A DNA stretch of 63,257 nt, counting the filler, from Asterionella formosa (taxonomy: Eukaryota), in assembly GCA_002256025.1 (NCBI GenBank). It is 3 parts of 3 records of this genome, joined end to end, with 100 filler letters (N's around TTAATTAATTAA, not from the genome) between each part and the next. Parts side by side here need not be neighbours in the genome. Positions count along the whole stretch, not along the records: positions 1 to 21,021 come from NKIB01003144.1; 2 more parts are not named here. One strand, written 5' to 3'. The stretch's first letter is position 1; each line of letters begins with the position of its first letter. The position numbers and the translations under genes were made by a program. The notes under the pieces are model-generated. The model was not told where the DNA came from, searched no databases, and worked only from the letters and a program-made list of their open reading frames with translations. Positions 6,433 to 58,033 of this stretch are shown here, in pieces.

Positions 6433-7764
6433 TTGTATGGAGTGCTTGAGTAAACTTCCGCACGGAGGAACCAGTGACTATGAGCAGGCTTCGAGGTGGA
6501 CGAAAATATTCAAAAATGATCGTTGGAGGAAATTCACACTGGAAGGCAGCTCTTTGTAACCAGCAGATCAATCAAATCGACTACCAGAATCTCTCTACCC
6601 GTATTTTATTGATCTGGACCTGTGTTTGAACAGAGTGGTCGCGACCTGTTCGAAGGAATAACGAAGGAAGCAACTGTTCGAAGGGATTTCACCAACAATG
6701 ATGCGCTTTGCAATGGCCAACGCCGGGTCGACACATTTGCGCCCGCCATTGATATTCTCTTTTATGTTTATTATACCAATATGAATATAATCATTTCCCT
6801 GCTCAAAAATACTACATAATATGGTTTACTAATAGTCTAAACAAAACAGTTTCGAACTACCGTTATTTACACTCTTCTTATGGACATAGTCTAGCACCAG
6901 GTCTCGGTGTAACAGTAAAACATACCAATGTTATGAACATCCATGTGCTCAAAAGCCACGAGGAATAGCATTTGCTGACTAACGGTACAGGGTGGCAGTG
7001 TGTTGTACCCCTGGAACCAGGTACCTGGTACCAGGTACCGGTCATGCGTTTATTAAATGGAATCCTAGAGTATATAATACAGTATAATCATGTACCGGCA
7101 TGTGAAAATTGCCCACCATCATTGGTATGTACCAGTATTCGTACATTTAGCAAAAATTGGAGCAAGTATACTTTTGACGTGAGGGGATGACACCGGTATG
7201 CATCAGCCAAAGCGCCTATCGTATGCTGTACAGATATGTCAAGAATATTAGCCCGAGTCACAGGGATTGTGGACTCGATTGTAATCCAACGAGTCGAATA
7301 TTGCATTGCCACGTCAATCAACAATCTAATGAGATCAAAGATTGAAGATTTCTATGGAAATGTTAAGTGGAAATTCAAAGAGAGTCTTTAAAAGATTTTG
7401 TGGGAAGCAAAGATGCATGGAAAGGAAACATTTAGTTTAGCTAATAATTTAATTTGAGTTTAGAATATCATTTGAGAACAGTGTGTTAATTGACAGGAAG
7501 GTCAATCAGTTTATCTAGCAGGGAAGCCTAGAAGCAGAGAAGAGAGAGAAAGTAAGTGGTACTAGGTAGTACTATGAGCACGTAAGAGTCTAAATGAAGA
7601 GATACCCAGGCCACTGGAAGGAGTACAGACCTTTTCAACACAGATAAAAAGCAAACAGCAAGCCCTCCAGTTTTGATGCTACCACATAACTATTTACCGG
7701 TGTGTGAGAACAAACAGGTATTTTGATGTCGTATCTTTCCATACCAACATACCGGTACCTGGTA

Positions 7765-10085
7765 CCACTTAAAAATTGTAAGCCACCATTATTTTACTCT
7801 ATCTTTCAACTAAAAATATTTATGTAATTCAACGATCAAAACTTGATGCAAGAAGTAATAAGCTTATGTTGGAAAATGCCCTCTGCTATACTATTAAGGA
7901 ATCAGTTTTGATTCAGTGTATCTAGCCATGAAGAAATGATTTTTCCAAAGTCACTAAGATTACTGCATAGCGGTGGCTTACAGTGCATATCTTTCTATCA
8001 TGTGTACATGTATATATTTTCCCCCCAAACCGTGTTTATTTTTACTCCGTTAATACTAAAAAGTTATTTTCTTATTACTTCACGTTTTACGCTTTTGCAG
8101 GGCAGCATCATCGTTGGAGAATTCTTCTGATGCATTACATTAATCTCGAGCTTCTTTGCATCCAATTACTTACTTGCGGAGTCTCAAACTTCATCACGGA
8201 ATGGTGGATCGGCAGTAGCAGTTGTAGAAGGAGAGGGAATAGCAACAGGAGGAGGTGCAGTAACAACAACCACAGCAATAGGAGGTGTATGGAGAGGGAA
8301 TGGCGGCTGCTGGTCACCATGGTGATTGGTGTTGTCGAATCTTGTAATCAGAGCTTGCCTTGTTTGTGGAACCGGCAAATCACCTGATCGTTTGTACCAA
8401 CGCGCCATTAATTTCAATTCTGGCACAGACATCTGTTCTTTTGTTTTGTTCTGTTCTTTCAATTCAAGTACTTTTCCGCGAAGTGTATTGAATTCTTGTT
8501 GCCTTTTTGTTTCTTTTGTACTACTAATGATAGTGTCTGAAATTCGCTTCCGTTCCACCAGTGTACTAGCAGCAAGAATGTTTGGCCCAAGGGCAAAGGT
8601 TTGTGCAGAGGCCAGTAGTCCTGCTGTTATCCTCTTCTTGTGTCCCTCAATGTGTAAATCCGCTGTCTCCTTTCTCTTTCTAGCTTGGGCCTCCCGGTCG
8701 ATTCCATTTCGCACATCCTTGCATTTGCAAAAACTCGTAAATTGTTCCAACAATTGTTCCAGCAAAGCCAGTTTAGAGGGTTAACTCATCAGGAGGGAGA
8801 GTGGCAGTCTCTGTGGGCGCATTGATGTTCTGTTGTGGTTGGGTTACTAGTTGAATCTCAGGGTGAAGCAAGACATTATAGTTCAGGGGATACCATCCTT
8901 GTTCATAAATTACTTTCTTGTTTGTGGCAATATTTGCAAAGGAATTGTCCCATGCCGTATTCACCAGTCCAACAATGTCGACCTTGCTAATTGTAATCTC
9001 TTGCCTGTGATATGATATGCTTTTAAGGTGAGCAATTTGCGTTTTGCTTTTGTGATGTTCATTTTGAAACAACTGTTTTGCTCAATACTGTCTCCAACCT
9101 GCCAGTAGCTTGTACCATAAGGAACACCAATACAGACTGTCCAATTGTGTACTGGGTTGTTTTATGTATTCAAGGAACAAAATGTCAAATCGAGAGCTAT
9201 GTCCATCAAGTATTAGGAATGGTGGGGGCCTGCTGTTTCGAGGAAAGATGCCAGAGTCATCCATGTGCTTTAGCATGCCAACCAGAAGCACTGCAGTGAT
9301 TGAGCCGTTTTCCGACACACAGCAGCATCTAGGCAACTGTTTCCTTCCACATCACAGACTGGTCCTTGTGGATGTCATTTTCCCTTTCCGCTATTGCCAT
9401 GTATGTTTTCATCTTCTCCTTCCCAAGCAGCAAACGGATCTAGGCCAAGCTTCTAGCTCCCTAAACACATTGTTAAGACAAATCTGAACACTGACCAACT
9501 CTTCAAGAGACAATTTCTTTCGAGGCAACAAGGCATTGCCTTGTCGAGGCGCTTTCGAGGTCATGATGTTGGTACTGTGATGGGTGATAGGTGATAAGTG
9601 ATTGTTGTGTTTGCATTTAATTTTTGTACTCATAATTCGGGCGTGCCAGGAATTCCTATTTGACGTTTTCCATTAGTGAGTTTATCTCTTTATTATGGCG
9701 CTCGAGCGAAAGCGCAATGACGTTGAAGCCATATTAAATAAATTTTAGAGGATACTAAATTAGTTTTCTAGCGGAGGAATGTTATTATAACTGTATACGT
9801 ATATAAAAAGTGATGCTTGCTCAATCGAGTAAACGTGAAAATATCCAATTTTAGCAATTTCACGTCGACAGCAAACTTTGGGGGATAATACCTAATTAAC
9901 AATGTACACAATGTAACAATACAAGAACGGAAGTATTTACTCGCTATATAAATCTGAACAACTCGTTCGTGACAATAAATAGCGTATCTTGTAAATTAAG
10001 TTCAAACCGTGCGTTTACTCTGTTTAGCGGTGGCTTACAGTTCAAAAGTCGCCGTAGCTAGCGGTGGCTTACAGTTTTTAAGTGG
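7765..10085 (-). mobile_element. Decayed pogo-like (Tc1/mariner superfamily) DNA transposon with both ends intact
   Basis: 23-bp TIRs: CCACTTAAAAATTGTAAGCCACC (7765-7787) versus the reverse complement of 10063-10085, with 1 mismatch. TA on both flanks. Internal copies of TAGCGGTGGCTTACAGT at ~7967, ~10025 and ~10059. Confidence 0.88.
8184..9633 (-). pseudogene. Fragmented DDE_1 (pogo/CENP-B-like) transposase
   Basis: Minus-strand fragments contain PFLILDGHSSRF, IGVPYGT..WQVGDS (frameshifted) and DIVGLVNTAWDNSF...GWYPLNYNVL. Several frameshifts; no intact N-terminal HTH. Confidence 0.8.
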
Positions 10086-12394
10086 TACCTGGTAATGCCT
10101 TAGGGTCGTTCTTATCATTTTCGATTTGGTATCATATTTTTTGAAAAAGTATCATGCAACGGCTACCCAATTTAAACCGAAAAAATCCATTCTCCACAAA
10201 AATAAAAATAAAATTGTATCATCAAAAAGTATCACGAAAATTCAACGGTTATGGGCTGGCTACAAACATGTGCTTTTCCTTCCAGACTATCGGTACATAA
10301 TGGTACCAAACCAGTCCTCAAACTATGCAAGAAATCTACGCAAATTATGTGTATGGACTACTATAGTCAATGGTATAATAATTCATTTCAAAGTTCAACT
10401 AATACCCTGCTCTTGTGGCTAATTCATTTACTAGTACTACACGCATCTTTATTTGTGAAATAGTAAGGATATTTGTAGTGTTTTATTTCATGCATGGACA
10501 ATCTACAGTTTATAGTTGTGCACTTCACGTAAATAATATGAACTATTATATTGAACAAGATTTCTCTTTGAGGTTTTCATGTGATGGTTCAGAATCATAC
10601 AGTGATTTCCAAGACAAAACTAGTTGATGATACAACTACGTATTTTAAAACTTCAAGATAAAATTGTTTTAGAGTATAAATCATTACGAAAGAGAACTCA
10701 TCGTATGGTACATACGCCAAAAAGGTATGAATTGGCCAAGAAATGACAGTAAAAAGAGTTTTCAACATCCTCATGCACCAAATTGACGCAACCATACTAA
10801 GCATCGCCGCTGAAGGCTGAAGTAAGTGCGCATTGCCTGTCAATGTAAAATTGGCAAATTGAACTCGCACCACTACGCCAAAGCAACGCGGACTCGAGAG
10901 AGTGTCCTTCAACGCTTATCAGAAGCACTCATGTGATGATAGCTAACCAAGTTAAGTACTGGTACAAGCAACCCGAGTGCGTGTTGTTGTCTTGCGCTGT
11001 GTCGTGGCTCAGTTGTTTTATCCCCGTGGCGCTTTTTCCCCTCAAATACTCCATCCGTACTCACGATTGGTAGATTAATTTATCTCCACGAGGATTGCAG
11101 TCATCGTACGCAAGCTTAGCCAAAGTGGACCTGCTGCAGATTTCAAATCTTTCCATTCTCAAACTAGGTTACAACAACTTGGGCAACGATGGTAAGTTTT
11201 AATCTGTTGACTGTCAGGATTTCAACACACCGCGCTTTGGGATCGTTGGATCTTGGATTCAACCAAGTCTGCGATGATGGGATTAGATCATTGGCACGTC
11301 GTGCTTTGTTTGGATCTGCCTTGCATACGCTTTGTAGGTTCTGTTGTTCCAAAGAGAAAGTCATGGCTGCGCCAGGATTTTTGACCCTCTCAATTCATAA
11401 AAACACCAACATTCAACACCACAGTGAACAATTAATTTTCAACATGGGGAAGACCCTTACAACTACTAGCATCCCCCTTCCAGATTTTCAGCTGCCTCAC
11501 TATAAACAAATCTTTTATCAGCTCACATATGGTTTGTTGCACCAACAGAAGGCAGGAGGAATGATGCAACATTGAGATCGTCCACAATGGATGCTTTTAA
11601 GGTAAGATTTATTTGCTTACTATTTTTGCTATCATATCACCAAGCGAGTGATAATTCATAATGATATGCTGCTGTTCTCAACATTCATCTGACATTTGAA
11701 CAGGCCTTTTCAGAAAAGGAGAGTTCTCTTGAAAGCAGGAGTGATAGAAGGTGAAATGATGCAATATGGAGACCCGCAAGCAATGGAAGATTTTACTAAG
11801 GTAAGCTTAATCCTCAGTTTTTGTCATCACATCAGCAAAGCGAGCGATAAATCACACGCGTTTGTTATTTTTCTCTACATTCATTTTACATTTTAGCAGT
11901 CCATTTCACAACAGGAGCATTCTTTTGAATACATCAGTGAGTTGCGGTGCTACCTGGTGGGTAATACCGGTGTCTTGCTTGCTGTAAATTTGACTGCTCC
12001 GTGAAACAGTTGAATAGCACATGTGTGTGTTGCTTTATGCTGTTGCTAGCTAGTTCTATTCAATGAATTACTGACACACTGTTGTTATGTAAATCTTTGC
12101 AGGTCAATGAAGAAGTCATTTCAAGGACAAGAAGGAAGCCAGTGCGATGCATTCCTGTTGCAACTTCGCACAATGATGCCTGTTTAAGAATGCATAATTT
12201 TTTCATTCAGAATGAACGGCTTCTGTTTGTCTTGCATTGTCCTTGTTACAGACATCTCATAATGCCTGCCTTCTCAAGACTGAAGATGCCACTCTGAAAG
12301 AACTGCTGTGTTTGATTGCATGTCGAGATTTGTTTCCCATGTAATGTGAAATACCGGTAGTTGAATTAGTAATCAACATATTTGATAGTACTTT

Positions 12395-15562: not shown

Positions 15563-16141
15563 GCTACCTTTTTTATGCCGAGAAGTGCGTATGAATGTCG
15601 ACTCGAATCATCGTCAAACGTCAATTTGTTCTTGCTTATTGTATACCGGACCGGACTTCATGTCGAGTTTGTCTCGAGTTGCTTTGCATCGTGTTTCTGT
15701 CTTATGGTCGAATGAGTCGTCTCATGGAGTCCCAGACATTTCGTACGAGGTCGTCCGCACATCTCAGCATCTTTCGTCCTAGATTTGTTACGACTGCCCT
15801 TCTAGATTACCGGTATATACATGAATATTTATAACGGTAATATCAATCCAAAAACCGGCATACCGGTATCTTACACTGTACCATTAGCACCGTGGTACCT
15901 GGTGCCCGTTACCAGGTAGGGTACCATACCACCCTGCTGGTGCTCATTAGCATGAGCACATACATATTTATATATATATACACAAATGCATCATCATAGG
16001 TGCATACATCCCCGTATAAACATTAATGCAATACCGGTATTTGCAGGACAACAAAAAGATGACACTTATTTTCTTGGATTTCGTCGCTCTCATGTCCCAG
16101 AACAGAGAAGAAGGATAGCAACTTACTTTAGTAACAAGAGA

Positions 16142-21021: not shown

Positions 21022-21121
21022 NNNNNNNNNNNNNNNNNNNNNNNNNNNNNNNNNNNNNNNNNNNNTTAATTAATTAANNNNNNNNNNNNNNNNNNNNNNN
21101 NNNNNNNNNNNNNNNNNNNNN
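21022..21121. other. Assembly gap with artificial TTAATTAATTAA spacer
   Basis: 100-nt N-run with a centred six-frame stop spacer; an identical construct lies at 42140-42239. Confidence 0.95.
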
Positions 21122-22305
21122 TCTCCAATTCCATTTTCATGATCCATTTCCATATTCCAGCGGCGAACATCCTCCAATGCATCTTGAATCAATGGTTTGT
21201 CTGGATGAAGCGGCATTTCAAAGCTATTTGAAAAGACACATCTTCATCTTTGATATCATTGTCGTCAAAGTCCACCCACGGCTGCTCTTCCGACAGAGAA
21301 TCCGCGTTCTTCTCTAGGCATGTCGTTGATCATGTAATCAATGGGATCAAAGTTGTTGACAACAAGATAGCAGCATCGCTCAAATTGCAGGAAAAACTAA
21401 CTAATTCCCAAATAGGAATGATAATATTTCATTTATAAAAGTAGTCTAATAGAAATATTTTACTTTTTTTATAATGGTTTTGTCATCTTACGTCACAGTA
21501 GATGGGTGGTTGACAGCATTTAGGATTTCCCAAAAACCGATAGCATCGTTTTTTCGTCAGTTGACCAAAACCAAAACCAATCCAAAAAAAAGTTTTTGGG
21601 TTTTGGTTTGGGTCAACGGTTAGCAACGGCATGATTTTTGACTACACAAAAAGATATACCGGTACCTGGTACCTGGTACCCTTATAATGCATGAGACGTA
21701 CCGGTACTCAATTTTGATGTATACCGGTAGTTTGGAGTAAAGATGCTGCTACCTGGTACCGGTACCTAGGTACCGGGTACCAGGTAACAGATACCAAGTG
21801 CCAGGGGAACCTGTTACCTGTATGCATCGGCGATTCGCTTCAAAACTCATTACTGTATATAATATAGTATGACGGCTGACTGCTAATACAAGGTACCAGT
21901 TCCGATTCCAGTTGCCAAGTGCGGTACCTGGTACCTGACCTGGTTACCAAGTCCAGTAACTATTTACCAATCGCTCAACTGAACACAACGTATTATACAA
22001 ACAGCTACTGGTACCAGTGTACCAGGTACCTGGTACCCTGGTTACTCACCTGTTTTATGCTCATATTCGTATGTGATAGTTTTCATATGTCGGCAGTTGT
22101 GCTTCGCCAATAGATAGAAAGTATATGTGTGTGTCACATATTATACGACCATACTAACCAGGAAATTTGTTATATATATATACGTGATCATATACCAGCT
22201 CGGAACCAAACATCGCTCAGTGGATAGAGCATGATCAGGAAAATCTATCAGGAAAAATATATATGGATATAAATTTCATTAATTTTATGTTAAAGTGAAA
22301 TCAAA

Positions 22306-29940: not shown

Positions 29941-32185
29941 TTGCAGTCCTTCCACCACCCACAGTCGTTCCTCCCACCAAACAACCCTGATCATCATTCC
30001 ATTCCAATCCATTCTGATTGAATATAATCGCCAGGATGCTCCAGCACTCTCGACTCCCTCTAGCTGAATATACGTAGCTTCTGATACGAACTCGTAGTAG
30101 AAATGTTAAGCATTGCTTGGCGGCAATATTGACATCATTGCTGTCAACGACTATACAAATCAACAAATACGATCAACAATGGCACAATACCACATCTTCA
30201 ATGAGTAGTCATTGATAAATGCATTGGTTCTTATGTAGATATATACAATCGAAACAAAAGACAGTGTGGAACAACAAACAACGATAGAAGCGATCAAAAC
30301 AAACCACGGGAGCAATCAAATCGGAAAGTCAATAAATACAATCTACATTCCACATTCAGTGTTTCACTGTTGTACTCACCGATCCGCTTCAACTAGCATA
30401 ACAAGCAGCAGACGATGGGATCAAAGAAAGAAAAACGTTGCCTATTGCAAGCCCGAATAGAGCAAAGGCAGGCAAGATAGAGTGAGAACTTTATTTGTGA
30501 GGACGAAATCGGGCATACGGTATGTAAAATCAATGAATATGTGAACGATATAAATTAACATTCAGGTCTTGTAAAAATAATACCAAATCTACAGAGATAA
30601 TATTATAACGTGTTCAAAGTAACCGTTAAAGTTAATCTTAAACCATGCATGGTTGTTTTCAGTACCACGTACGTATGTAGGCTAGATGACTACCAGTAGA
30701 ATATCCATTAAGCATCTTCACATGCATGACCGGTGCAAAAACTTGCCACCAACATCAGATGTATCGATATCATTGTTCGTCCGACGAAATATGGACGATG
30801 CGACTACATGAATCCCTCGAGAAGACAAGCAATCTAACAACCAACCACATCCGTTAGACAACGAATCGCTTCTGGCGTCATTGCGGAACTGATTTCGCTT
30901 CAAACCGGTCATGATGTACAACGATTGGCATGGTGAAAGGTGAATTGCTTGAGTCCACTTTTCAGGAGAAGAAGAAAAACGAGGTGAATTCTAGATATAA
31001 ATTATTAAAATCTGTATAGTATATAAAATAGTTTCCTTCAGTAGACCTCTTGCCGATTTCGGCAATCCCAGGGCTGGAAAACGAGGGGCAATTAGCGTCT
31101 GTTGTCTTGCCAAAATGCTAACATATAGAATTGTCAATGCATGTTCATGAACAATTGTCAACTTACACTCTCTTCACGTCGTCCCAACAAAATAAATGAA
31201 ATGTTCAAGCAGTCCTGGAGACGCAGAAACTGCTTATTGAATTTGCTATGGAGGAGATGGATCTGGAGGAATTGTGAGTTGGTGTTGTGGTTGTGGTTGT
31301 GGAGGACCATCCATGTGATTGTAAACTTTGTGTAGTTGGTGCAGTGTGATGTTAGCATATTGAAAAGGAGGATGAGAAAGATGAACTGGATGGCTGAAGT
31401 TTCAAGAAAAGGGAGATCACAATCAATATCATGATTGGAAATTTTCAGATATGCATTGACAGAGTCACTTTCAACTGTAGGGTTCAATCCAGTTAAAATG
31501 AAGAGATGACAATCAAGGTGCCTCGTCAATTGCGTGGGGTGTGGTGTGGCATTGGATTATGTTCCATTGGAAGTCCTTGTTGAAATGAATGATGTTCATC
31601 ATAATGATTCAAATGCTGGTTTGGAAATCATCAAGCTGCTGCTTTGACCACTGGAAAGAGCTAATTCGAAATTAAAGGTAGTTTGGCAGTCAAAAATGAA
31701 GCATACAAAATGAACAATATATGTTTTATATGATGGGCAATTGTAGGATTCAGTAATCCAAAAACTGAACATGTGAAATAAACAACATATGTTTTGTATG
31801 AAGGGTGATAGGCTAGTTTGTGTCCAACATACAAACTATCTATAATGTGTTTTCATTGTTAACTGGAAGGGCAATGTAGAGGCACAAAAGCACACCAATA
31901 GCTAGGTTGTGAATTGCATAGTTAAGGCCCTATTTGGGAGGAGACTGCCTACTTGTATTCTTGTGTACTCATCTTGGGAGGCCCTTGCAGGTAGACTTCT
32001 CTTAGAACTGGGGGCACCACTCATTTGGTCACCCTACTTGCACCTTGTACACAAGATTAATCACATGCAGTCTCCACCCTTGGTTGTGTGTTACCTTCAG
32101 TAGTAATAGTATTATGCTAGAGGCCACTTTTCTTTCCTTCAAATTTGATTTCACTAACTATGTCACTGATGTTCGTATTACTATG

Positions 32186-32290
32186 TAGTAGGATTGACCC
32201 CAAAGAGTCCAACACTTGGCTGGTTTGCCAGTGTGGAAACATATTGTTCCTTCTGGGAGTTCGGGCTGATCAAAAGGAATACACAAAGTC
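32186..32290 (-). repeat. Tandem duplicate of the last ~105 nt of the ProRS coding sequence
   Basis: Near-identical to 32298-32402; encodes [34 protein letters not shown]. Confidence 0.92.
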
Positions 32291-32296
32291 ATATCA

Positions 32297-35282
32297 CTAA
32301 TAGGATCGACCCCAAAGAACCCAACACTTGGCAGGTTTACCAGTGTGGAAACACATTGTTCCTTCTGGGAGTTCGGGCTGATCAAAAGGAATACACAAAG
32401 TCTTCGCTGAAACGGAAAGGGCTTCGGTGGCCTCTTCTCCTTCAATACCAGAGAGTTTCAATGATTCTTCCTTCGACTTTTCCTTTACTTCTTCTTCCTC
32501 TTCTTTGAATTCTCCTCCACACCATGGAGTCAAGACAAGATTGTTCAATTCCAAATTTGGCACAAAGTCCTTCCATTCTGTCACTTTGACCAAGTGTGCA
32601 TCACGCATTTCTTTAGCCTTCGCAAACATTGCAGCTTGGATATCCACCAACTTGGTTTGGAGAGTTCCTGCCAAACCTGCAATGGGCAAGTCAATCTTTT
32701 CTCCATTGAATCGAACCACGACACGAACAGACTGTTGTTCAATGTCACGAGGGCCAACTTCCACACGAAGTGGGACACCCTTTTGCTCCCAATGGTTGTA
32801 CTTCCATCCAGGATTGTACATTTCACGGTCATCATACTTGGCACGGATCTGTGAATGAAACGACATGAAATATTAGTCAAAGCGTAAAGATGTATATAGG
32901 GAATCCCACCAATACAAATACACAAAAACTCACTCCTACAGCTAACAAATTCTTCAAGACGGCTTCACATGTGGGATTCGCTTGCTCCATGGATAAATTC
33001 TTGCTGAGAATAGGGACAATGACAACTTGAAGTGGCGACAGCATAGGAGGCAAAACAAGCCCAGTGTCATCACCGTGCACCATAACCATTACTCCAATAG
33101 TTCTAGTCGTCAACCCCCAAGAGGTTTGCCAAGGAACTTGAGTCTTTCCTTCATGATCTTGAAATCGAATATCAAACATTTTCGCAAAGTTCTGTCCAAG
33201 GTTATGAGATGTGGCACCCTGAATGGCACGGCCTGAGGTGGGAACATAGGCTTCCACAGTTGTGGTTTGGTACCCCCCAGCAAACTTTTCCTTTTCTGTT
33301 TTGTATCCCTTAATGACTGGGACTGCCAAAAGTTCTTCATACACACGTCTGTACAATTCCAATGCTTGCATGACCATAACATCGGCATCTGCCAATGTGG
33401 CGTGTGCGGTATGACCTTCCTGCCATAAGAATTCGCGTGTTCGAAGGAAAGGTGTGGGGTCTTTGAATTCCCATCTTACTACATTGGACCATTGGTTCAA
33501 CTTGAGAGGCAAATCACGGTGACTCTTTATCCAATCAGAAAAGGCAGGATACATGATGGTTTCACTTGTGGGGCGGACGGCGATTGGTGCAGCAAGGTCA
33601 GAATCTCCTGACTTTGTTACCCACGCCACTTCAGGACTAAATCCTTCCACATGGTCCTTCTCTTTTTCCAAGCGATCCTTGGACACAAACATTGGAAAAT
33701 ACGAATTCTCCACTCCAAGAGGCTTTATCTAGAAGGAAGAGGAGAAGGAAAACAAAGTTCATTGCGTTAGAACGAGAGCCCGCCACATGGGTTTCCATAA
33801 ATATTCATACTTCTAGATTGCACATACCTCTCCATTGAACCATTCAGTGATTAATTCCCAAATTTTGTAAGACCATGGTCGTAAGATGTAACATCCTGAA
33901 ATGTCATAGTAGGAAATCATTTCCGACAACACGATGACATCCGAATACCACATTGGAAAATTGTCGGCCTTTTTCCATTGCAAGGCCAATAATGTTTCCC
34001 CTTTTTTCACCACCTTTTTGTTAGGATCCACCTTTTTGATAATAGCTTGTTTGGGCTGTTTTGGTTGCTTGTCCGAGAAACCGGATGGTTTCGTCGCTTG
34101 CTGTTGTTCCCCGTTTGTATCCATGGTTCCAGTAGCACCCGCACAAAAGTCTACCATAGTGTACGCATGGCCTGTCTTTTCAATAAACTTTTTCAATTCC
34201 GTAGGCGTCATGCACACAGACATGTCATTCCGCATGGGATGTGAATGAATATGCTCCACATTCGTAAATAAAGCTTGATCCAAAACCAATGTAATAGAAT
34301 TGGATGTATCATGAAGGATACAAAGCACCCCAACACATCCAGGTTTGACACCTCCCAAGGTTGACGCCAAGGTCTCTTCATCAGCCAATCTCATGTTCGT
34401 TTTTCCTGCTAGTCCCAAGGCCTTGCCCAAGGATTTGGTATCTAATGGTGACGACGTGGCCATAACCAATAAGAACATTCCATGTTTCTTATCCTTAAAC
34501 AGCAAATTTTTGGTATGAGTGTCGTTGGATGGAATGGGAACTGTAGTGACCAGTTCTTCAGCTGTATGACACAAGGGGTGCGAATAAACGGAATGCGGAA
34601 TATTCCATTCTCCAAGTTTGTCTAGAATGACGTTGTCTTGAATGGACAATGTCTCCAATTGAGAAGTCACTGTAGCTCCGGGAGTGCTAGTAAAATACTC
34701 TGATAAAATGGGAATGGCTTTTACCGTGTTGAACCATGTAGTAGCCCTTGGCCCAAGCTCTGTTGGAATCAACCACAAGGCAATCACAACATCACTCGTT
34801 GAAGGAACGCTTCCGCCCAAAAACGCTTGTTCGGACAAGGTAGCTTCCAACTCAGCCATGAATGTAGCCATATTGCCTAGATGTAAAAGAGAAACAAAGA
34901 GTTAGCGCCGGAGAGGGGAACGTTTTGTCCGAGTTGCGGGCATTGTAGATAGAACACAACCAGACGTACCAGGAAGTAAGGCGGGAGTCCATATCATGGC
35001 GGCACTGGCATTTCGAAGCCAAACTGCATCCGCGTCTACCCAATAGTCACTTGGCACAGCAACACAACCGCACAACGTGGAAATGGCCGAAACATAGTCG
35101 TCCTTGGACTGCACCACAGTCTGACGACCTGTCCAAACGTGAGTCGTCACCGCCGTCACTTTAACGACATCATCGTCGACCACAACAGCCACGTCCTTAA
35201 TGCCAAGGCTCTTGGCCAAGGCATTCCAAATGGTACCGGAGGATTCGGGACCTTGACAAGTCACAGCAAGCGTCGTCGTCAT
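32297..35282 (-). CDS. proS: Cytosolic prolyl-tRNA synthetase with N-terminal GST-like and YbaK/ProXp domains; exons 35282-34970, 34876-33828, 33728-32934, 32848-32297
   Basis: [82 protein letters not shown] and terminal GRSY. YbaK motif [11 protein letters not shown]. Three GT-AG introns keep the frame. Confidence 0.95.
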
Positions 35283-35289
35283 GGCACCG

Positions 35290-36300
35290 GTGGATATTGT
35301 AGACTACCGGTACTGGCACAGTACTGGTATCGATGCGGTCTAATACCGGTATGCAAAGTGGCAGTGCTTGCTCGTCGTCATCGGTTCCTCCGTTTCTGCC
35401 TCGCTGCGGCTTGGTATGATACTTTTCATACCACCCTGGGACAGATCCTACATACAGTCAAGTAAAACGTGACCGAAAGATGAACGCACATCAGTGCATA
35501 TACCGGCAGTCTAGTCTACCGGTAATCTATTTTATGCATACTAATATATCTAGTACCGGTATTTTTCGCCAGGGTACCTACGGAGTACTTGTTACTCCTG
35601 GTCCCTGTTGCTCCCTCGTAACAATCTATCTAGGGAAGTACTAGGTATGACGGAATACTACATACAAAGGTTGTCCCAGGTAGCATAACGGTTGTAGTGC
35701 CGTACTGGTACCTGGTACAAACGGCTCTCCTATTCCGGTACCAGGTATTTGCAAGTTGCGGTCATGCTACTTTCAACATTTTAATATGGGATAAAGAAAG
35801 CTAAATCGTTAGTATCAGCAACATTACCGTAACTTGGTGGTACAAACGGCTCTTCTATACCGGTACCAGGGTTTTAGGTGCAAACGGTTCTCCTAAATCG
35901 GTACCTGGTACCCTGGTACGGTACTGGTACCAGGTACTTGGTACTTGGTTTCTCGAGTGGAGTACCAGTTAGCACCAGTACCTAGACTACCGTGGTCTTT
36001 GGAAAATCAATGTTAGCAGCAATTTGCGGTCTTTAGTTTCATCAAATTTACAGCAACTTGCAGGTACCATGGTAACCAGGGTACCAGGTACCGGTACCTT
36101 GTACCTGTTACCAGCATTACAATGCGCTTCTTCTTACCGGTATATGGTGGAGTACCGACTGGTACGTGGTTGTCTCCTACGACCAGTTCCTGTCACCAGG
36201 TACCACCACGTACAGTACTCTACATATTTACCGAAAGCAGACGTTTACGGTATATTGCACACAGACACCACCTCGTACCAGGTACCAGGGTACCTGGTAG
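35290..36300. repeat. Dense GTAC / TACC(A/T)GGTA / TACCGGTA palindrome cluster in the divergent ProRS-RPS21 promoter region
   Basis: Dozens of overlapping motifs, plus three related GGTACAAACGGCT/TTCT units (~35714, ~35839, ~35877). Confidence 0.8.
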
Positions 36301-36669
36301 CTTGGTCACCACACAAACGCACTCAACAGTCAATCAGACACACGAGTAGTAAGTGGTGAGAGTTAACTGGCGGCCCATTCCTCACGACGAAACAGCTCTT
36401 TCAACAAATCCAGAAACTGCTAGGGTAAGGAATACTCATCACCATGGCCGTCCTCGTCGTTATTCTATCTATGCAGTTGTGCACAGTAGTCCCTTGAACG
36501 ATTTGTGAATGGATGAATCGAGTTGTTGATCCGAGAACAAGTAACAGGGATGCGTGGAATGCGTTGGAATTCATACTTTTGGTACTCGATATTGCAATGC
36601 CTAGGCTGGGCCAGGTGTCATCGCACTCACTCACATTTCACTCTCCACACCAACAGATACCATAAAATC

Positions 36670-36936
36670 ATGCAAAACGAACAAGGAGACAACGTGGATC
36701 TTTATGTTCCCAGAAAGTGTTCGTACACAAACCGATTGGTCAAGGCCAAGGATCATTCGTCGGTGCAAATCAATGTAGCCAATGTCGATCCCGTCACAGG
36801 AATTGCGGCCTTGGGAGACTTTACTCCCTACTGTTTGGCAGGATACATTAGATTCAAATCAGAAGGAGATATGGCATTGACGACCTTGGTTACGGAAAGA
36901 GACACTCAAATGTTGGCCGCGGCGCAAGTCGAATAA
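36670..36936 (+). CDS. RPS21: 40S ribosomal protein S21
   Basis: MQNEQGDNVDLYVPRKCSYTNRLVKAKDHSSVQIN is diagnostic. A probable 5' UTR intron spans 36425-36656 (GTAAGG...CAACAG). Confidence 0.96.
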   Translation: MQNEQGDNVDLYVPRKCSYTNRLVKAKDHSSVQINVANVDPVTGIAALGDFTPYCLAGYIRFKSEGDMALTTLVTERDTQMLAAAQVE

Positions 36937-39900
36937 ACTATAGAGTACTACTTACCGGTATACTAGTTTCTATCTGGGCAAGCTAGCTGTAACACACAGT
37001 TGCTCCTGTTTGTTTGGTTCACAAGATCATAGTCAACTGGTATGTAGTTGCTACCCTGGCATACTGGCACCATAACATTACAGGTAGGCAGTTGATTATC
37101 CATACTGGTTTATGGACGGATGGTGTGGAATGAGGTGGAATGAAGCATGTTGAGAGGAGAACCATTCCTTGCTCTACAAAAATGTGCAAATGCATACATG
37201 CTTGAAGCAATGATACACACCCAAGATGGCACTGGTACCAGGGTATCATGCCTGCAGGTACACATGATGTTCTACCTAGTAAACGAGAAGTGAGTGATGT
37301 ACATAGCCACCAAGAGGAAGGATAATAAGTTTGAGGCAATTCACAAACAAGCTATCTTTCACTTGCCTAATATTGTAAATGGTCCACATGTCCATCCATT
37401 ATCACCTTCTGGTTGAAATAACTTGGAATCATGTTCAGTGGCCATCATGACCAGCAATGATGCTTTGGTGCCAGTATAATATGATTCATGTACACATATT
37501 CCTTCTGAACATCTTTGTGAAAGAAAACTTGCAGTGGAGCATATCATTTCCCTACTCAAGTCGCATCCAGGGATGATGCAGTACTTATGGGCAAGGTGGA
37601 ATACTTGACCAATATGATCCTCTACACACACACCTTCTTATCCTGGCTGGATCCTGGATTTGACATAATCCATCATTTTTAGCAAAATAATGATGCCCAA
37701 AATGATTGTTTCTATCACTTGATCTTATGCAGTAGACAATAATCACATAGTTACTATCATGATGAATTGGATGACAACTGCTGTAGATTTGGAAAACATT
37801 AATGATGTCAATCTTGATGATCTGGAATGGGGGCGGGGGGGGGAATTTGGTTGTGAAACTTTTCAGCCATCTCTACTTCATCAGTTATGTCTCCCAAATT
37901 TCCGGTATTTTCATTCATTGAATGAACTTGTTCATAAAATGAATGAATTTCACTGAGTTCTTCAATATTATCAGCGATGTCAGGAGAAGGAGTAAAATAC
38001 AATAACTGAAGTGACTATGTAGGAATAGACTCTTCATCAGTGAGGAAAAAATGTTTTGGTTTCACCTTCAAAAGCAATCTTTCTTTCTTTTGTATTTTTC
38101 CTGCTATTGAATCAGCATGCTTCGTTCTTTTCTCTGGAGAATTATAAAGCTGTTCAAAATCATTTTATCTATGTGTGAACACAAATGATTTCACTACTGA
38201 TCTCATTAGTTTTTCATTTTCTTTTCAGAATACACAATGTTGTGTAGTGTAAAAGCTGGAAGTTTCTCCCGTTTCCTTGATTGATCATTTCCGTTCAATG
38301 CCATTTTGGGATTTGACAAAGAACCAGAAGGGTGCAATATGAAGAAGTGATTGGTCAATGTGCTTGTGGTGGTACAACTGCACGCAAATAATGGTTGAAC
38401 AAGTAGTATGGCTGCACGCAATTCTTACCAATTAAAATAATTGTTGAACAGTAGCAACGATTAATGGGCTGATGGTTTATGCTGAAGGCACATTGCGTAC
38501 ATACATACATACTATAATGCAAATGGAACATGCAAAAATAAATGAATCCAACATTTATGATCAATTGATCATATTTGTATGATCATGTGATCGCATGTTT
38601 ATAACTATTTAATCCTATTCTGGTACCATACTTTCATTTTGAAATCACCATACTTTCATCACAAAAACATCGTACTTTTTATGAAATGTTATTACATTTC
38701 TATAATCAATTAATTATATATTCAATTATCATACTCTATTACGATGCTATCATTCTTTCTATAAAATGTTATCATATTTTTATGATCAATTTATCATATA
38801 TTCAATAATTATATTTTATTTCAATGGCATCGTTCTTTTTTGTAGAATGCAATCATATTTCTATGATCAATTTATCATATATTCAATATTTATTTGGGAT
38901 AGTATCCCGGTTTTGCTTATACCAGGAGAATAATTCCAAAGAGGACAGTGTCTATACAGTCTACACTTCAGTGCAACACACAGTTCTATGCACGAAGATG
39001 CGGAGGATACAGAGATTTCCAGCAGCAATCCAAGATAATCATAATCACTCCCTTTATTGATAGTACCATCTATAAGGCAGATTCAACAATGACAAGAGGA
39101 GCAGAAGACAACAACATCCCATTTATGACAGCAAACCACGAAGAATAAGATTGCAATAACAAGGGATCGGTCAAGAAGACTGAAAGCGAGCATTGTGCTG
39201 CAGCCAAAGAACAAATTAGATACAATGCATATATTGATTGAATATGTATAGTCAACAAGGTTAATATTTAATTTACGATGATAATTACTGTACCTAAAAG
39301 ATGATTTATTATAAAAAAAATTGATCCGATGATCATCATCGAAGGATGCATCATATGAATATGATGTTTTCTATTTGCAGACGAACTATGGTCATAACAT
39401 TCATGACACCAGTCTTGTTTTTGTTCTTGGGTGCAATGTTCTTTTTCTTTTTCCTTGTTTCAAATGTGACCAATTCATCATCATGCCCTAACAATGATTT
39501 TGTATCACCATCTATTACCATTGTCTCATCATCTGCTAATTTTGTCTTTGCCATCTGCTAATTCCAACATCTCAATAAAACTTTTTATAAACTTGGAATT
39601 CAGTCGCTTACATTGCAAGCGATTGACGACTATATATAAATCAAGAATTGTAGTATTGGACCAAGAATAAAACCTTATAGTATATTTAAGTATGCTCTAC
39701 TATATACTATTGATTTGTTGATGTAATTCCATTACCATCAATAGGAAATAGCGCAAGTCATAATTTTCGAGTCGATTTTTCGTGTTGAAGCTAGTAGAAC
39801 CATCATCGATGTTAATGTAAATCACTAAATATACTAAAAGAAATGAGAATTGAGTCTATTAACGGTTATACAATGTTGTAATATATAGTATAGACTGCAT

Positions 39901-42139: not shown

Positions 42140-42239
42140 NNNNNNNNNNNNNNNNNNNNNNNNNNNNNNNNNNNNNNNNNNNNTTAATTAATTAANNNNN
42201 NNNNNNNNNNNNNNNNNNNNNNNNNNNNNNNNNNNNNNN
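42140..42239. other. Assembly gap with artificial TTAATTAATTAA spacer
   Basis: Same construct as 21022-21121. Confidence 0.95.
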
Positions 42240-54357: not shown

Positions 54358-54678
54358 TCGACATTACAGTATGTAGGTTTAATAATACTACGGTACATGC
54401 ACAAAGGTATACATAAAAGGCAGTACCCAGTACCGGAGACAGGTATAACGATACCTGGTACCAGGCAGTACATAATCTTGGTTCCTGGAAGGTCCAGCAA
54501 TCAGTGCACATGGCGTGCAGGTTGCTCGTTTTCTGTTCATCGATTCACAAATGAGAAAAAAGCAGGGGTATACCTCAAAAATTGTCGAGCCCCTAAATTT
54601 TGCGCCACTCTGTTATTCTTTAAATAGTTGTTTACATAGACGTTAAGCCGTTAATCGTTTTATTGTGAAAATGAACTT

Positions 54679-54882
54679 CAAGTCAGCAGTCAGTAAGTTA
54701 AAGCCAGCAGTCAGTAAGTTAAAGTCAGCAGTCAGTAAGTTAAAGTCAGCAGTCAGTAAGTTAAAGTCAGCAGTCAGTAAGTTAAAGTCAGCAGTCAGTA
54801 AGTGGAAGTCAGCAGTCAGCGATTTTTTCAAATTTTCAGCGAATCAAGTCAGCAGTCAGTAGTTAGCAAGTTGAAGTCAGCA
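54679..54882 (+). repeat. 21-bp minisatellite AAGTCAGCAGTCAGTAAGTTA (~6.5 units plus degenerate copies)
   Basis: Directly visible; related GCAGTCAGC units recur at 55164-55262. Confidence 0.92.
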
Positions 54883-56429
54883 TTTTTACGATAGTACCGG
54901 TACATAGTGGCAGCAATATCACGAAGTAGAAAGCAATGATTTTTTAAGGCATCGATGTCGATTTCACAATTTGGTACGTCAATGTTAATCCCGATAGTAT
55001 AGTATGAATGTCGAAGGCATCGCTTTTAGTATCCCAAAAACAAAAAGATGCATTTCCATCATTATATAAATATGAAAAGTAGACGCAATTTGTACACCAG
55101 TACCGGTAGTTGGTCTCTTCCTATGAACAAAGTAGCTTGCTTGACGTCAGCATGTTGACGATAGCAGTCAGCAGTCAGCGAATATTTCAAATCTTCAGCA
55201 AATCAAGTAAGCAGTTAGCAACAAGAAGTCCGCAGTCAGCAAGTTGAAATTGGTAGTCAGCGATTCTGCTGTGAAAGGTGGCAGTGCTTTTCCGTTTCAA
55301 ACTTTATAACAGTTACAGGTAGTAGGAATACATGTAAATATCTTGAGATTTTTCATCATTTCGGAATTGGTGAGCCGGTCAGACTTCCAATGAAGTTGGT
55401 TGAAATCGCTACGTGGAATTCTCAGTATATAGTGCGCGCAATTCGCTGATTACCGGACCTTCTTGGTAGTGCTCAAATTTTTAGTCGAAAAATCTGCTTT
55501 TCAAAAATTTGCATTGTAAGGGCCCGCTGCATTATTCATATTCTGATTGGTTATTCTTACATCCGTTCGAATAGCCCGGTTTGCGAGGCTTTGCAATCCC
55601 ACGCCCGCCACACTGGATACACATGCAACATTTTCTTGGGTGTTGGCCGATGCGATATCCACGACCTGGTACCAGGTACCGGTAGCTGATCATCATTGGT
55701 CATAGTACCGGTTGTGTACGAGTACCAGTACATCTCTCCTACATAACTGCACTTTAAAATATTTTCCGAGATGCTGGGTGATACATGTGACACATTGTTG
55801 TTCATCTGAGCATGATGCCGCTACCAGTACCATGACTCTATGTACATCCAGCAACGAAGAGTCTATTTATGTGTATTTCAGGGCATACTATGAGAAGGAA
55901 TCTATGTATGCACTCGCAAATTTTCACTGATTTAAATATTTCAAACAGAATCATCGAAGTTCAAAATGAGTGCATAAAAGTTCTTAGTTCCAGGGAATTT
56001 CGGGAACCTAGGGGTTCAAATGCAGGAACCTTAGAAGACTCCAATGTAAGTTGCCGCATCACTACACCTATTCTGATTGGTTGAATTTAATTTACTCACC
56101 TGCTCCAGATTGGCTGAAGTATTCCGTTCTTGTCAAATCACGCCAGCCAAACTTGAACCACATGTATTAGATATACTGTATACCGGTAGGAAAAATTAGT
56201 AATACGGTACCTGGTACCAGTCGTTTCATCCTGTCTTCCATCACTACCATTCCAATGATGACGTTTCGTCGATTAGTGATTCTGATTCCGATTCTTTGGA
56301 GACTGTAGAAAAGGCCGATTTTGTCGAATTTTTTTGGACGACATTAGCTCAATGCCGGCTGGGTCTGAAGGCGATTTCAATACATAGGTAACTTTCAAAT
56401 AGCATCAATATATAATTTCCTGCGAGAAA

Positions 56430-56533
56430 CTGCAGAAAGGAACTTCGGTTTTTTACTATGCTAAAAAGACTGGAAGATTCGGGGGGAAATCTGTTTATTT
56501 GGTATAGTAAAAAACCGAAGTTCCTTTCTGCAG
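56430..56533. repeat. Hairpin with perfect 30-bp arms
   Basis: CTGCAGAAAGGAACTTCGGTTTTTTACTAT (56430-56459) is the exact reverse complement of 56504-56533. Confidence 0.92.
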
Positions 56534-56766
56534 ATCCTATATCCTGACAATATATAGAGTGGACCTACACCCCTACTTGTCCGAAGACTGTATTTAAGCA
56601 TATGGCAAGGGTGTCTAATGGTGAAAGCTCCGTAGAACGTTATACATATCTAATTTATACGTGAAAAGTACGTTTTTGATTAGTCTGACTCAATATTTGT
56701 TTTTAAACCCTACCTCGAGCTAGGGGTTCAAATGCAGGAACCTGAAGGTTGCGGCCTCGCAGTTAT

Positions 56767-58033
56767 ACATTGCGAGGTCTGTTTTTCTCCAAAATAATTT
56801 TATGAAGTACCTTAATCCTCACCGTACGTACAACAAAATAAAATAGTTAAAGGTAAAATTAGCTTTCACCAATATGACCACTTTGCACATGACAAAGAGG
56901 GATTGATAAATGCTGTTAAAGCATCTGTTGGTGTCTGTAGAGAGGACAGGGCTACTGTAACCCCCATAGCAACAGTTTAAACTACTAAACTAGTGTCGAG
57001 AGGAGTTCAAGCACACTAGACTACATATTTGCACGTGATTCTACCGTGTTAAATATTTAGCTAGTACATCTACTGTGCTTTTATTTGTTTCTATTTCTCC
57101 CGTAGTGCGCCCATAGTGCGTGGTAGCTACTTGGCGAATTGGCAAGGATTCTAGGATTCCCGAAAATGGACGCTTTTGCGGAAACGACCATAACTTTAAA
57201 AATGTGCAATCTTTTTTAAAATGGAAAAAAGTTTTAGATGTTTTAAGGGTCAGCTATCAATTCCGCACTTTAAAATGGAGGGCACACGATTTTTCGCCCC
57301 AAGAGTGTGTCGAACTGGTCAGGTCAACTCTACCGGTAGTACTGGTACTGTTTTTACCAACCACCAGTATTCAGGACATCTAGCTAATACATGTGGTTCA
57401 AGTGTGGCTGGCATGATTTTACAAGACCAGGATACTTAAGTGAATCTGGAGCAGGTGAGTAAATTCAATTCAACAAATCAGAATGTGTGTACTAGTGATG
57501 CGGGAACTTACACTGGAGTCTTTTTGGATTGAGAATTATTCAGCAAAACATACCTACGCAAGACTCTTAGTATACGAGAGCGTTTTTGCACGTTCAAATT
57601 CTGATTCCAATATTTTGGCTACTGTTGAAAAAGCTGATAGGGTCAACTTTTTGGAGGAGGATTATTCTACATCTATGGGGCTTCATAAAGAATAAAGTAG
57701 ATAGCCATGTACCCTATAATGTCAGGAGTTAACTTCTGTAGAGAAGTGGCAGTTATCCCTCGTAGATTTTTTGAAAAGCTTCGTAGCCCCTTTTTTGGGG
57801 ATAGTTACGATTCCAAGAGGGATAACTGCATTTTCTCTCCAGAAATGGGGTCCTTACCATATCTGTATATTGATCATACCCCTAAGTTGACCAATGACTG
57901 TATCTAAGCATATGCAAAGTGGTCGTATTGGCGAAAGCTAATTTTACCTTCAACTATTTTATTTTGTTGCACATACTGTGTGGATTAAGGTACATCATAA
58001 AATTATTTTGGGAAGAAACGGACCTCGCATTGT
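56767..58033. mobile_element. Non-autonomous element bounded by ~125-bp imperfect inverted repeats (56767-56891 / 57909-58033)
   Basis: The arms align by eye over their whole length (e.g. CCAAAATAATTTTATGAxGTACCTTAATCC). No transposase inside; no target-site duplication identified. Confidence 0.7.

What the first reader, a model, noticed from the sequence alone, without database searches (positions are those of the whole stretch)
7751..10094. The palindromes may be accumulated excision footprints of the resident pogo-like family
Seen: the element ends are CCA... and ...TGG, each flanked by TA, and the reconstructed empty site ACCGGTACCTGG-TA-CCTGGTA is itself a motif cluster. Established: Tc1/mariner excision leaves TA + a few terminal nucleotides + TA. 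Inference: retaining 2-3 nt from each end would give TA-CC-GG-TA, TA-CC(A/T)GG-TA and TA-CCA-TGG-TA. All of these occur in the window (the last at 36065-36074). Each footprint creates new TA targets, so insertion-excision cycles could build promoter-proximal arrays and reshape promoters.
Basis: inference. Interest (0 to 1): 0.8.

Follow-up and report, generated by a model that had tools for sequence, protein, structure and literature searches.

The report
Transposon scars build diatom promoter palindromes
The short palindromes that crowd the non-coding DNA of this diatom are mostly scars left when cut-and-paste jumping genes left a TA site; the commonest scar comes from a different jumping-gene family than the one in this window, whose own clan instead homes in on the scars and probably lengthens them into arrays upstream of genes.

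Summary
The element (7765-10085, CCA...TGG ends, TA duplication) and the motifs are as described. The footprint idea holds; the donor needs revising. In paralogous repeat copies of this genome, 19 of 34 six-base insertion sites turn a plain TA into TA-CCGG-TA (chance 0.4%). Their flanks show no G/C bias, like family E, a separate, intact DD35D pogo with CCG...CGG ends. One homologous site occurs empty, E-filled and as TACCGGTA. The window's family A and its sister D (CCA ends) strongly prefer GG-TA-CC and TACCWGG arrays. Standing TACCWGGTA has that same flank signature, and CCWGG units are added non-tandemly in both orientations, so the A clade probably supplies them, but I found no empty/filled/scar trio for it. 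TACCATGGTA is rare: 0 of 670 insertions. Slippage also expands arrays. CCWGG arrays lie upstream of genes; an effect on promoters is untested. The scan noted the scar idea before on other pieces of this genome; the donor split and trio are tested here. A known process at unusual, self-feeding scale.

The parts
7765..10085 (-). Family A element: degenerate DD37D pogo-like DNA transposon, ends CCA...TGG
   Evidence: 349 TIR matches in own genome
7765..7787 (+). Left TIR (23 bp)
10063..10085 (-). Right TIR (23 bp)
7763..7764 (.). TA target-site duplication, left copy
10086..10087 (.). TA target-site duplication, right copy
8289..9449 (-). Broken transposase remnant (matches residues 309-689 of P0001; includes the second and third catalytic Asp region)
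   Evidence: tblastn; frames
7750..7764 (.). Left flank: TACCGGTA unit (E-type scar, inferred) chained to a TACCTGGTA unit
   Evidence: origin inferred
10086..10094 (.). Right flank TACCTGGTA unit; with the left flank it forms the GG-TA-CC target that A prefers
10055..10060 (.). TA-GC-TA: a 4-base insertion inside this element copy that other copies lack; scar of another, unidentified element class
30691..30698 (.). TA-CCAG-TA where paralogous repeat copies have plain TA (one-off variant of the CCGG scar)
35232..36293 (.). Largest motif array, between the divergent ProRS and RPS21 genes; contains family C fragments
36065..36074 (.). The only TACCATGGTA in the window
21657..22032 (.). Motif array upstream of the 22294 ORF
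15644..16034 (.). Motif cluster between the divergent AAA ATPase and kinase genes
54488..55462 (.). Family B MITE (G..C ends, CWG duplication); its copies served as one of the paralogue sets

Best explanation
The palindromes are mainly excision footprints of several TA-targeting IS630-Tc1-mariner/pogo-type families, in two steps. (1) Family E (intact DD35D DDE_1 transposase, ends CCG...CGG, inserts at any TA) excises and leaves TA-CCGG-TA. Inferred mechanism: 3-base 3' overhangs (CCG and CCG) anneal through their self-complementary CG and are filled in. An E subfamily with one CCC end would give TA-CCSGG-TA. (2) Each scar offers TA-CC and GG-TA half-sites. The clade of the window's element (A, D, F; CCA ends, DD37D transposase) prefers GG-TA-CC, inserts there, and on excision most likely leaves TA-CCWGG-TA through an A.A mismatch resolved either way, as in the Sleeping Beauty cag/ctg footprint. 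This regenerates its own target on both sides. Slippage adds same-orientation units, CpG decay gives TACTGGTA/TACCAGTA, and CWG-duplicating MITEs (B, C) insert into the units. Shown: insertion of fixed cores at TA, target logos, one empty/filled/scar site for E, mixed growth of arrays. Inferred: overhang lengths, the repair route, and which CCA-ended family donates CCWGG.
For: De novo events against family majority sequences (311 kb aligned, 19,362 substitutions): 19 of 34 six-base insertion sites are TA to TACCGGTA (12 exact, 7 one-off; random 6-mers 0.4%), against 2 of 16 six-base deletions, both only one-off matches. Flank signature: G outside the TA in E ends 11/36, de novo CCGG 6/38, standing TACCGGTA 60/230, background TA 25%; in A ends 68/76, D ends 54/63, standing TACCWGGTA 157/194. 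E vs A P=5e-10; E vs standing TACCGGTA P=0.55. Trio: one site is empty in L362, L376, L317, L028, carries a full 2460-bp E with both TAs in L338, and reads TA-CCGG-TA in L241. A second TA in family B is empty in most of 56 copies, scarred in 13, and has an E end in L378. 5 of 12 full E copies have one CCC end, and TA-CCSGG-TA insertions occur (L237, L308). Non-tandem CCWGG additions: L078, L160. In the array inside family D1, copies differ by mixed units (L300 CCAGG+CCTGG+CCGG, L304, L204, L312) and L072 has an A element at that array. Rough budget (my arithmetic): about 1 CCGG birth per 1000 substitutions gives about 0.12 per kb at equilibrium, against 0.44 per kb seen (115 in 263 kb): same order. 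Precedent: canonical SB footprints cag/ctg (PMC5224488, passages); Passer 0-4 bp (PMC9976928, passages); repeated insertion beside a Stowaway footprint (PMC1925063, passages).
Against: No excision was observed; all evidence is comparison of paralogues in one assembly. No clean empty/filled/scar trio for A or D among 11 and 7 ends whose flank had a paralogue. Exact de novo CCWGG events are few (4 seven-base insertions, 1 tandem and 1 at the slippage-like B array), and L078 lacks the GG-TA-CC context. Adjacent CCWGG units share orientation 34 times against 16 (P=0.015), and the array inside family B grows from 1 to 4 units all in one orientation (41 copies), which fits slippage better. The flank match between A/D targets and TACCWGGTA is partly circular. 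The birth rate falls about threefold short of the standing density. TACCGGTA is also tenfold enriched at other eukaryotes' RPS21 loci (10 against 0.98 in 137 kb) and is a promoter motif in Phytophthora (PMC3597505), so selection may keep some copies.
Confidence: 0.78

Rival explanations
1. One reading: the window's CCA-ended family A itself leaves all three words by keeping 2+2, 3+2 or 3+3 terminal bases.
For: A ends start with CC, are TA-flanked and target the arrays. CCWGG fits a 3+2 product. One TA-TGG-TA and two TA-CC-TA/TA-GG-TA insertions were seen.
Against: De novo CCGG scars lack A's flank signature (6/38 against 68/76). E, not A, sits at sites that also occur as TACCGGTA. CCATGG makes 4 of 367 units and 0 of 670 insertions. 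Single-end words TACCATA/TATGGTA are not enriched (15 against 13.7).
Confidence: 0.07
2. TACCGGTA is an E footprint, but the TACCWGG arrays are a slippage-driven minisatellite seeded by mutated scars; A, D, B and C only exploit them as landing pads.
For: Same-orientation excess 34 against 16. B-internal array 1-4 identical units. L138 and L139 differ by one 7-base unit next to an element that is still in place. No trio for A or D.
Against: Non-tandem CCWGG insertions at a plain TA (L078) or between unlike neighbours (L160, L300, L304) cannot be copied from adjacent sequence. 16 of 50 adjacent pairs are in opposite orientation. 157 of 194 standing half-sites carry the A/D target G.
Confidence: 0.1
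3. The words are transcription-factor sites built by point mutation and selection in promoters, as proposed for TACATGTA/TACCGGTA in Phytophthora; the transposons merely resemble and target them.
For: Promoter-side bias (CCWGG 24 in 39 upstream windows against 2 in 40 downstream; CCGG 26 against 12). TACCGGTA is motif M94 in P. infestans (PMC3597505, passages); PsMyb37 binds TACATGTA (PMC11134190, abstract); a footprint origin was considered and dismissed there (PMC3520976, passages).
Against: The words are born whole as 6-base insertions inside non-functional repeat copies, where promoter selection is not expected, and one such site also holds the element itself. This rival may still explain retention, not origin.
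Confidence: 0.03
4. A host or element enzyme makes a staggered cut at TA and adds a fixed non-templated CC to both ends, with no transposon ever inserted.
For: It would give the same product, TA-CCGG-TA at random TA.
Against: No such enzyme is known to me (recalled). An element with matching ends, matching lack of flank bias and a matching minor CCC-end/CCSGG variant is present, and occupies the same sites.
Confidence: 0.02

Closest known systems
Canonical Tc1/mariner excision footprints (Sleeping Beauty TA-cag/ctg-TA, PMC5224488 passages; Passer 0-4 bp, PMC9976928 passages; Tc1 TACATGTA as cited in PMC3520976)
   Same: Duplicated TA enclosing a few terminal bases of the element; an A/T ambiguity in the middle for CCWGG.
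   Different: Bases of both ends are kept (CC+GG). The scars are among the most over-represented words of the genome (about 0.4 per kb each), and the product is very uniform.
Stowaway footprints and re-insertion in Triticeae beta-amylase intron 4 (PMC1925063, passages); Emigrant/Lemi1 footprints in Arabidopsis (PMC1636448, passages)
   Same: Natural footprints read from sequence comparison; new insertion next to an old footprint at the same TA.
   Different: Those are single loci. Here it is genome-wide, with a division of labour: one family seeds, a second clade targets GG-TA-CC and appears to regenerate its own target.
Rice DNA-transposon excisions (PMC4423477, passages)
   Same: Excision as a source of sequence change seen by comparative genomics.
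   Different: In rice excisions mostly cause deletions and filler DNA (8 of 94 perfect); here they leave short fixed insertions, and 3-, 4- and 6-base insertions outnumber deletions.
Phytophthora promoter palindromes TACATGTA (M93, motif-1) and TACCGGTA (M94) (PMC3597505, PMC3520976 passages; PMC11134190 abstract)
   Same: Same TA-bounded word, abundant in promoters of a stramenopile.
   Different: Read there as transcription-factor sites, with a footprint origin dismissed on grounds of abundance. TACATGTA is not enriched in this genome (7 against 8.6). Their origin in oomycetes was not tested here.
pogo superfamily (Gao et al. 2020, PMC7386202, passages)
   Same: TA duplication, TIR of 40 bp or less, DDD triad within DD29-59D; present in stramenopiles.
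   Different: Family A is DD37D with a 700-1000-residue transposase that no Pfam DDE_1 scan detects (0 of 42 homologues); E is an ordinary DDE_1 DD35D type with a second convergent ORF.

Membership tests
Tc1/mariner-type excision footprint (TACCGGTA) | Arises as an insertion that duplicates TA | tested here: met
   19 of 34 six-base insertion sites; majority copy has TA at 18 of 19
Tc1/mariner-type excision footprint (TACCGGTA) | Core equals terminal bases of a resident element with the same target choice | tested here: met
   Family E ends CCG...CGG; G outside TA 11/36 against 6/38 and 60/230
Tc1/mariner-type excision footprint (TACCGGTA) | Same site found empty, filled and scarred | tested here: met
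   L362/L376/L317/L028, L338, L241; second site with one E end only
Tc1/mariner-type excision footprint (TACCWGGTA from A/D) | Arises as a non-tandem TA-duplicating insertion | tested here: met
   L078, L160; L300, L304 read by eye in the D1 array; tandem events also occur
Tc1/mariner-type excision footprint (TACCWGGTA from A/D) | Same site found empty, filled and scarred | tested here: inconclusive
   No clean trio among 11 A and 7 D ends with a paralogous flank; an A element lies in a growing array in L072
Tc1/mariner-type excision footprint (TACCATGGTA) | Arises as an insertion at TA | tested here: not met
   0 of 670 insertions; 1 in the window, 0 in 200 kb
Tc1/mariner-type excision footprint | Produced by the transposase in an excision assay | not testable with these tools
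   needs an experiment
pogo superfamily (family A, the window's element) | TA duplication and short TIR | tested here: met
   TA before 76 of 83 distinct ends; 23-bp TIR
pogo superfamily (family A, the window's element) | DDD triad, DD29-59D | tested here: met
   Invariant D241, D390, D428 in 42 homologues: DD37D
pogo superfamily (family A, the window's element) | Pfam DDE_1 domain by HMM | tested here: not met
   0 of 42 homologues at E<=1; none for genome copies. Language-model neighbours are DDE_1 clusters (0.95, 25 of 30 hits) and the best folds are Mos1 (E 3e-3), SETMAR and SB, so it works like one
pogo superfamily (family A, the window's element) | Placement in the pogo clade of a DDE tree | not tested
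   No reference set; profile comparison with a 2-sequence DDE_1 alignment was uninformative
pogo superfamily (family E) | DDE_1 domain, DD35D, TA duplication, short TIR | tested here: met
   Over Pfam cut-off; open frames in L343 and L338; TA before 36 of 41 ends; spacing counted from the translation
Mutator-type 9-bp target duplication (alternative reading of the flanks) | 9-bp duplication in all copies | tested here: not met
   Other full copies share only TA; empty paralogues show one TA

The most novel reading that the evidence does not exclude
A self-feeding footprint engine writes the promoter vocabulary: one pogo family seeds TACCGGTA anywhere, a second clade has evolved to insert at GG-TA-CC and leaves a scar that rebuilds its own target twice, so harmless landing pads grow upstream of genes and attract further families. 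Host factors may have adopted these words, and the abundant TACATGTA/TACCGGTA promoter motifs of oomycetes, one of which has a known Myb reader, may have the same origin.
Probability: 0.2. Interest if true: 0.85.

Novelty: new variant of a known kind. Interest (0 to 1): 0.62.

Why it matters
Excision footprints are usually treated as rare, locus-level curiosities. Here they appear to set the short-insertion spectrum and the top over-represented words of a whole genome, so motif finders would report them as regulatory sites. The scars record past transposition of elements that have left, and their core and flanks identify the donor family, which gives a way to count jumps rather than surviving copies. 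The case reopens a dismissed question about the commonest oomycete promoter palindromes and makes it testable with the same paralogue method. An intact family E offers a direct assay.

Tried and rejected
(1) 9-bp target duplication: rejected. (2) Family C as a second TA-flanked CC..GG donor: first assumed, then rejected; it is an 88-bp MITE with CAAG..CTTG ends and a CWG duplication (19 of 34 exact) that inserts into TAC-CWG-GTA. (3) Strain polymorphism: four public runs laid on 32000-38400. Tables were filled by multi-copy repeats; long contigs of run X6 showed 3, 42, 12 and 10 gap letters across the array, but the letters were not listed. Inconclusive. (4) Empty allele of the window's own insertion: none in the assembly; only a flanking repeat matched. 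(5) Pairwise indel counts count one event several times; final numbers come from alignment to family majority sequences. In these, events needed clean 12-base flanks and depth of 4 or more, three rows at one family-B site were merged, and one of the 86 seeds is a repetitive host gene. (6) Anchored read-out of two arrays was swamped by loose matches and cut; repeated more tightly. (7) Pfam, BLAST, PDB-sequence and profile comparisons did not link A to DDE_1. (8) Metagenome RPS21 loci (57 loci, best 81% identical, 41 kept after removing duplicates) were too distant to align the promoter and served only for word counts; their taxa are not established. (9) Literature: eight searches found no paper on footprints as genome-wide or diatom promoter words; the library lacks most subscription papers, and no supplements were read.
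Full report
Observation. The window joins contigs of a diatom-like genome (homologues of the transposase are named from Fragilaria crotonensis). The element lies at 7765-10085 with 23-bp TIRs, CCA...TGG ends and TA on both sides. TACCGGTA occurs 28 times (expected 0.65), TACCWGGTA 32 times (0.75) and TACCATGGTA once. In 200 kb fetched without regard to motifs the counts are 87, 65 and 0. The identical 9-mer on both flanks is not a 9-bp duplication, since other copies duplicate only TA.

The element. Family A has 349 TIR matches in the genome, as 2.1-3.7 kb copies and 730-760 bp MITEs. Its transposase has at least 340 homologues with an invariant DD37D triad. No Pfam DDE_1 match was found in 42 homologues, but language-model neighbours are DDE_1 clusters and the best folds are Mos1, SETMAR and Sleeping Beauty. 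It works like a pogo-type element; membership is not fully shown. Family D (ends CCAG...CTGG, 167 TIR matches) is a sister: a 3.5-kb D copy encodes an A-type protein at about 50% identity. A third relative, F, also has CCA ends.

Target choice. Among distinct TA-flanked A ends, the base outside the TA is G in 68 of 76, GG in 52 and CCWGG in 22; for D, 54, 43 and 12 of 63. Background TA has G in 25%.

Do the words arise as footprints? I aligned paralogous repeat copies from about 0.9 Mb of non-redundant own-genome sequence to family majority sequences (311 kb aligned, 19,362 substitutions, 670 insertions, 421 deletions). Of 34 six-base insertion sites, 19 convert TA to TACCGGTA (12 exact, 7 with one change, such as CTGG, CCAG or TCGG, as CpG decay would give); random 6-mers do so in 0.4%. 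Only 2 of 16 six-base deletions resemble the word, each with a mismatch. None of the 19 copies adjacent sequence. A fixed core between duplicated TAs, whatever the flank, is the signature of an excision footprint. No CCATGG insertion was seen.

Who is the donor? The de novo CCGG sites have G outside the TA in only 6 of 38 half-sites, and standing TACCGGTA in 60 of 230. That is not A's signature. A DDE_1 search of the genome revealed family E: 2460 bp, open DD35D frames, ends CCG...CGG, 166 TIR matches, many copies 93-97% like L343, and no flank bias (G in 11 of 36; against A P=5e-10; against standing TACCGGTA P=0.55). No E end lies in the window. One site in a repeat occurs empty (L362, L376, L317, L028), filled by a complete E with both TAs (L338) and as TA-CCGG-TA (L241). 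A TA inside family B is empty in most of 56 copies, scarred in 13 and carries an E end in L378, whose other end was not found. Three-base overhangs CCG/CCG could anneal through CG and fill to CCGG (inference). Five of 12 full E copies have one CCC end, which predicts CCSGG, and such insertions occur.

The CCWGG arrays. Standing TACCWGGTA has G outside in 157 of 194 half-sites, like A and D targets (P=0.10 for a difference). Non-tandem additions exist: L078 at a plain TA and L160 between two CCGG units. In the array inside family D1, copies differ by unlike units: L300 has CCAGG, CCTGG and CCGG where L211 and L301 have none, L304 adds CCAGG, and L072 has an A element in the array (read by eye). 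This is what insertion-excision cycles predict. An A.A mismatch resolved either way gives CCAGG or CCTGG, as for the Sleeping Beauty cag/ctg footprint (PMC5224488, passages); D's CCAG end would even pair on both sides of the mismatch if its overhang is four bases (inference). Against this: no clean trio among 11 A and 7 D ends with paralogous flanks; adjacent units share orientation 34 to 16; the array inside B grows from 1 unit (15 copies) to 2 (22), 3 (2) and 4 (2) in one orientation; and two homologous A insertions differ by one unit with the element in place. Slippage or templated repair therefore contributes.

Scale and position. About one CCGG scar per 1000 substitutions, lost at about eight sites per word, gives roughly 0.12 per kb, against 0.44 per kb observed (115 in 263 kb). 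The threefold gap may reflect substitutions counted repeatedly within subfamilies, more insertion in open chromatin, or retention. In 500-base windows beside long ORFs, CCWGG words number 24 in 39 upstream windows and 2 in 40 downstream; CCGG 26 and 12; 66 kb of ORF interior holds one (ORF-based, introns not modelled). The main window clusters lie at gene 5' ends. Whether they change promoter activity is untested. Laying four public runs on the largest array was inconclusive.

Wider footprint landscape. Three- and four-base insertions outnumber deletions 214 to 28 and 113 to 21. Of these, 164 are a duplicated dinucleotide around C or G, and 67 around GC, at any dinucleotide. These look like scars of an unidentified element class with a 2-base duplication. 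The window's element carries one at 10055. CWG-duplicating MITEs B and C insert at C-CWG-G, C mostly within the units.

What is known. Footprints of this form are textbook for the superfamily (PMC5224488, PMC9976928, passages), and natural footprints with re-insertion are known at single plant loci (PMC1925063, PMC1636448, passages). Rice excisions are mostly imprecise (PMC4423477, passages). TACCGGTA and TACATGTA are promoter motifs of Phytophthora (PMC3597505, passages); a footprint origin of the second was dismissed for its abundance (PMC3520976, passages) and a Myb protein binds it (PMC11134190, abstract). TACCGGTA is also tenfold enriched at 41 RPS21 loci of other eukaryotes, of unverified taxa. 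Eight searches found no paper describing footprints as dominant genomic words; the library is incomplete and no supplements were read. Earlier notes of this scan reached the scar reading on other pieces of the same genome; I consulted them after the main tests, and they are not independent support. They also describe a two-gene DD35D pogo of about this size; E does carry a convergent 145-codon frame, whose fold I did not test.

Verdict. Observation confirmed; interpretation partly supported. Footprint origin of TACCGGTA from family E is close to shown by comparison. CCWGG from the window's clade is likely but not shown. TACCATGGTA is marginal. A known process at unusual scale with a probable self-feeding loop: interest 0.62.

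Noticed in passing
genome-wide repeat copies; window 10055-10060: 231 of 327 three- and four-base insertions are a duplicated dinucleotide around C, G or GC, at any dinucleotide. Probably scars of a 2-bp-duplicating element with C..G ends; donor not identified. One word search of earlier findings returned nothing.
   Followed up: partly
L343:2314-2751 (-), L338:781-1218 (+): Family E carries a second, convergent ORF of about 145 codons with a Cys/His motif. Earlier scan notes call such ORFs HIRAN-like; if so it might protect 3' overhangs and explain the uniform scar (untested).
   Followed up: partly
window 54488-55462; L140-L167, L228-L257: Family B MITE (about 950 bp, GAAGG ends, CWG duplication, Harbinger-like by recalled analogy) prefers C-CWG-G; 4-base CWG+C/G insertions in arrays look like its scars.
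   Followed up: partly
window 35752-36060; L169-L197: Family C: 88-bp MITE with CWG duplication that inserts into the middle of TACCWGGTA; hundreds of candidate copies.
   Followed up: partly
P0001, L033, L302: The A/D transposases form a large family (at least 340 homologues, often 700-1000 residues, DD37D) that Pfam does not detect; possibly an unnamed pogo-related lineage of diatoms.
   Followed up: partly
L318, L319, L347: A further DDE_1 family with CAG...CTG ends; a TA-CTG-TA insertion shared by five D1 copies fits its expected scar.
   Followed up: no
L074:3778-4964, L164:210-1358, L075:315-1042: piggyBac-like elements at TTAA, one inserted into the TTAA inside family A's own TIR.
   Followed up: no
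window 49042-53836: Degenerate Copia-type retroelement region (RVT_2 and retroviral SH3 matches).
   Followed up: no
window 56035-57522 and 56767-58033: Two interleaved elements with long inverted repeats (111 and 125 bases).
   Followed up: no
window 21022-21121, 42140-42239: N runs with a six-frame stop linker mark contig joins; sequence across them is not contiguous.
   Followed up: no
L044, L025, L077, L298, L308: A, D and F elements often sit end to end across a single TA, consistent with targeting sequence that mimics their own GG-TA end.
   Followed up: partly
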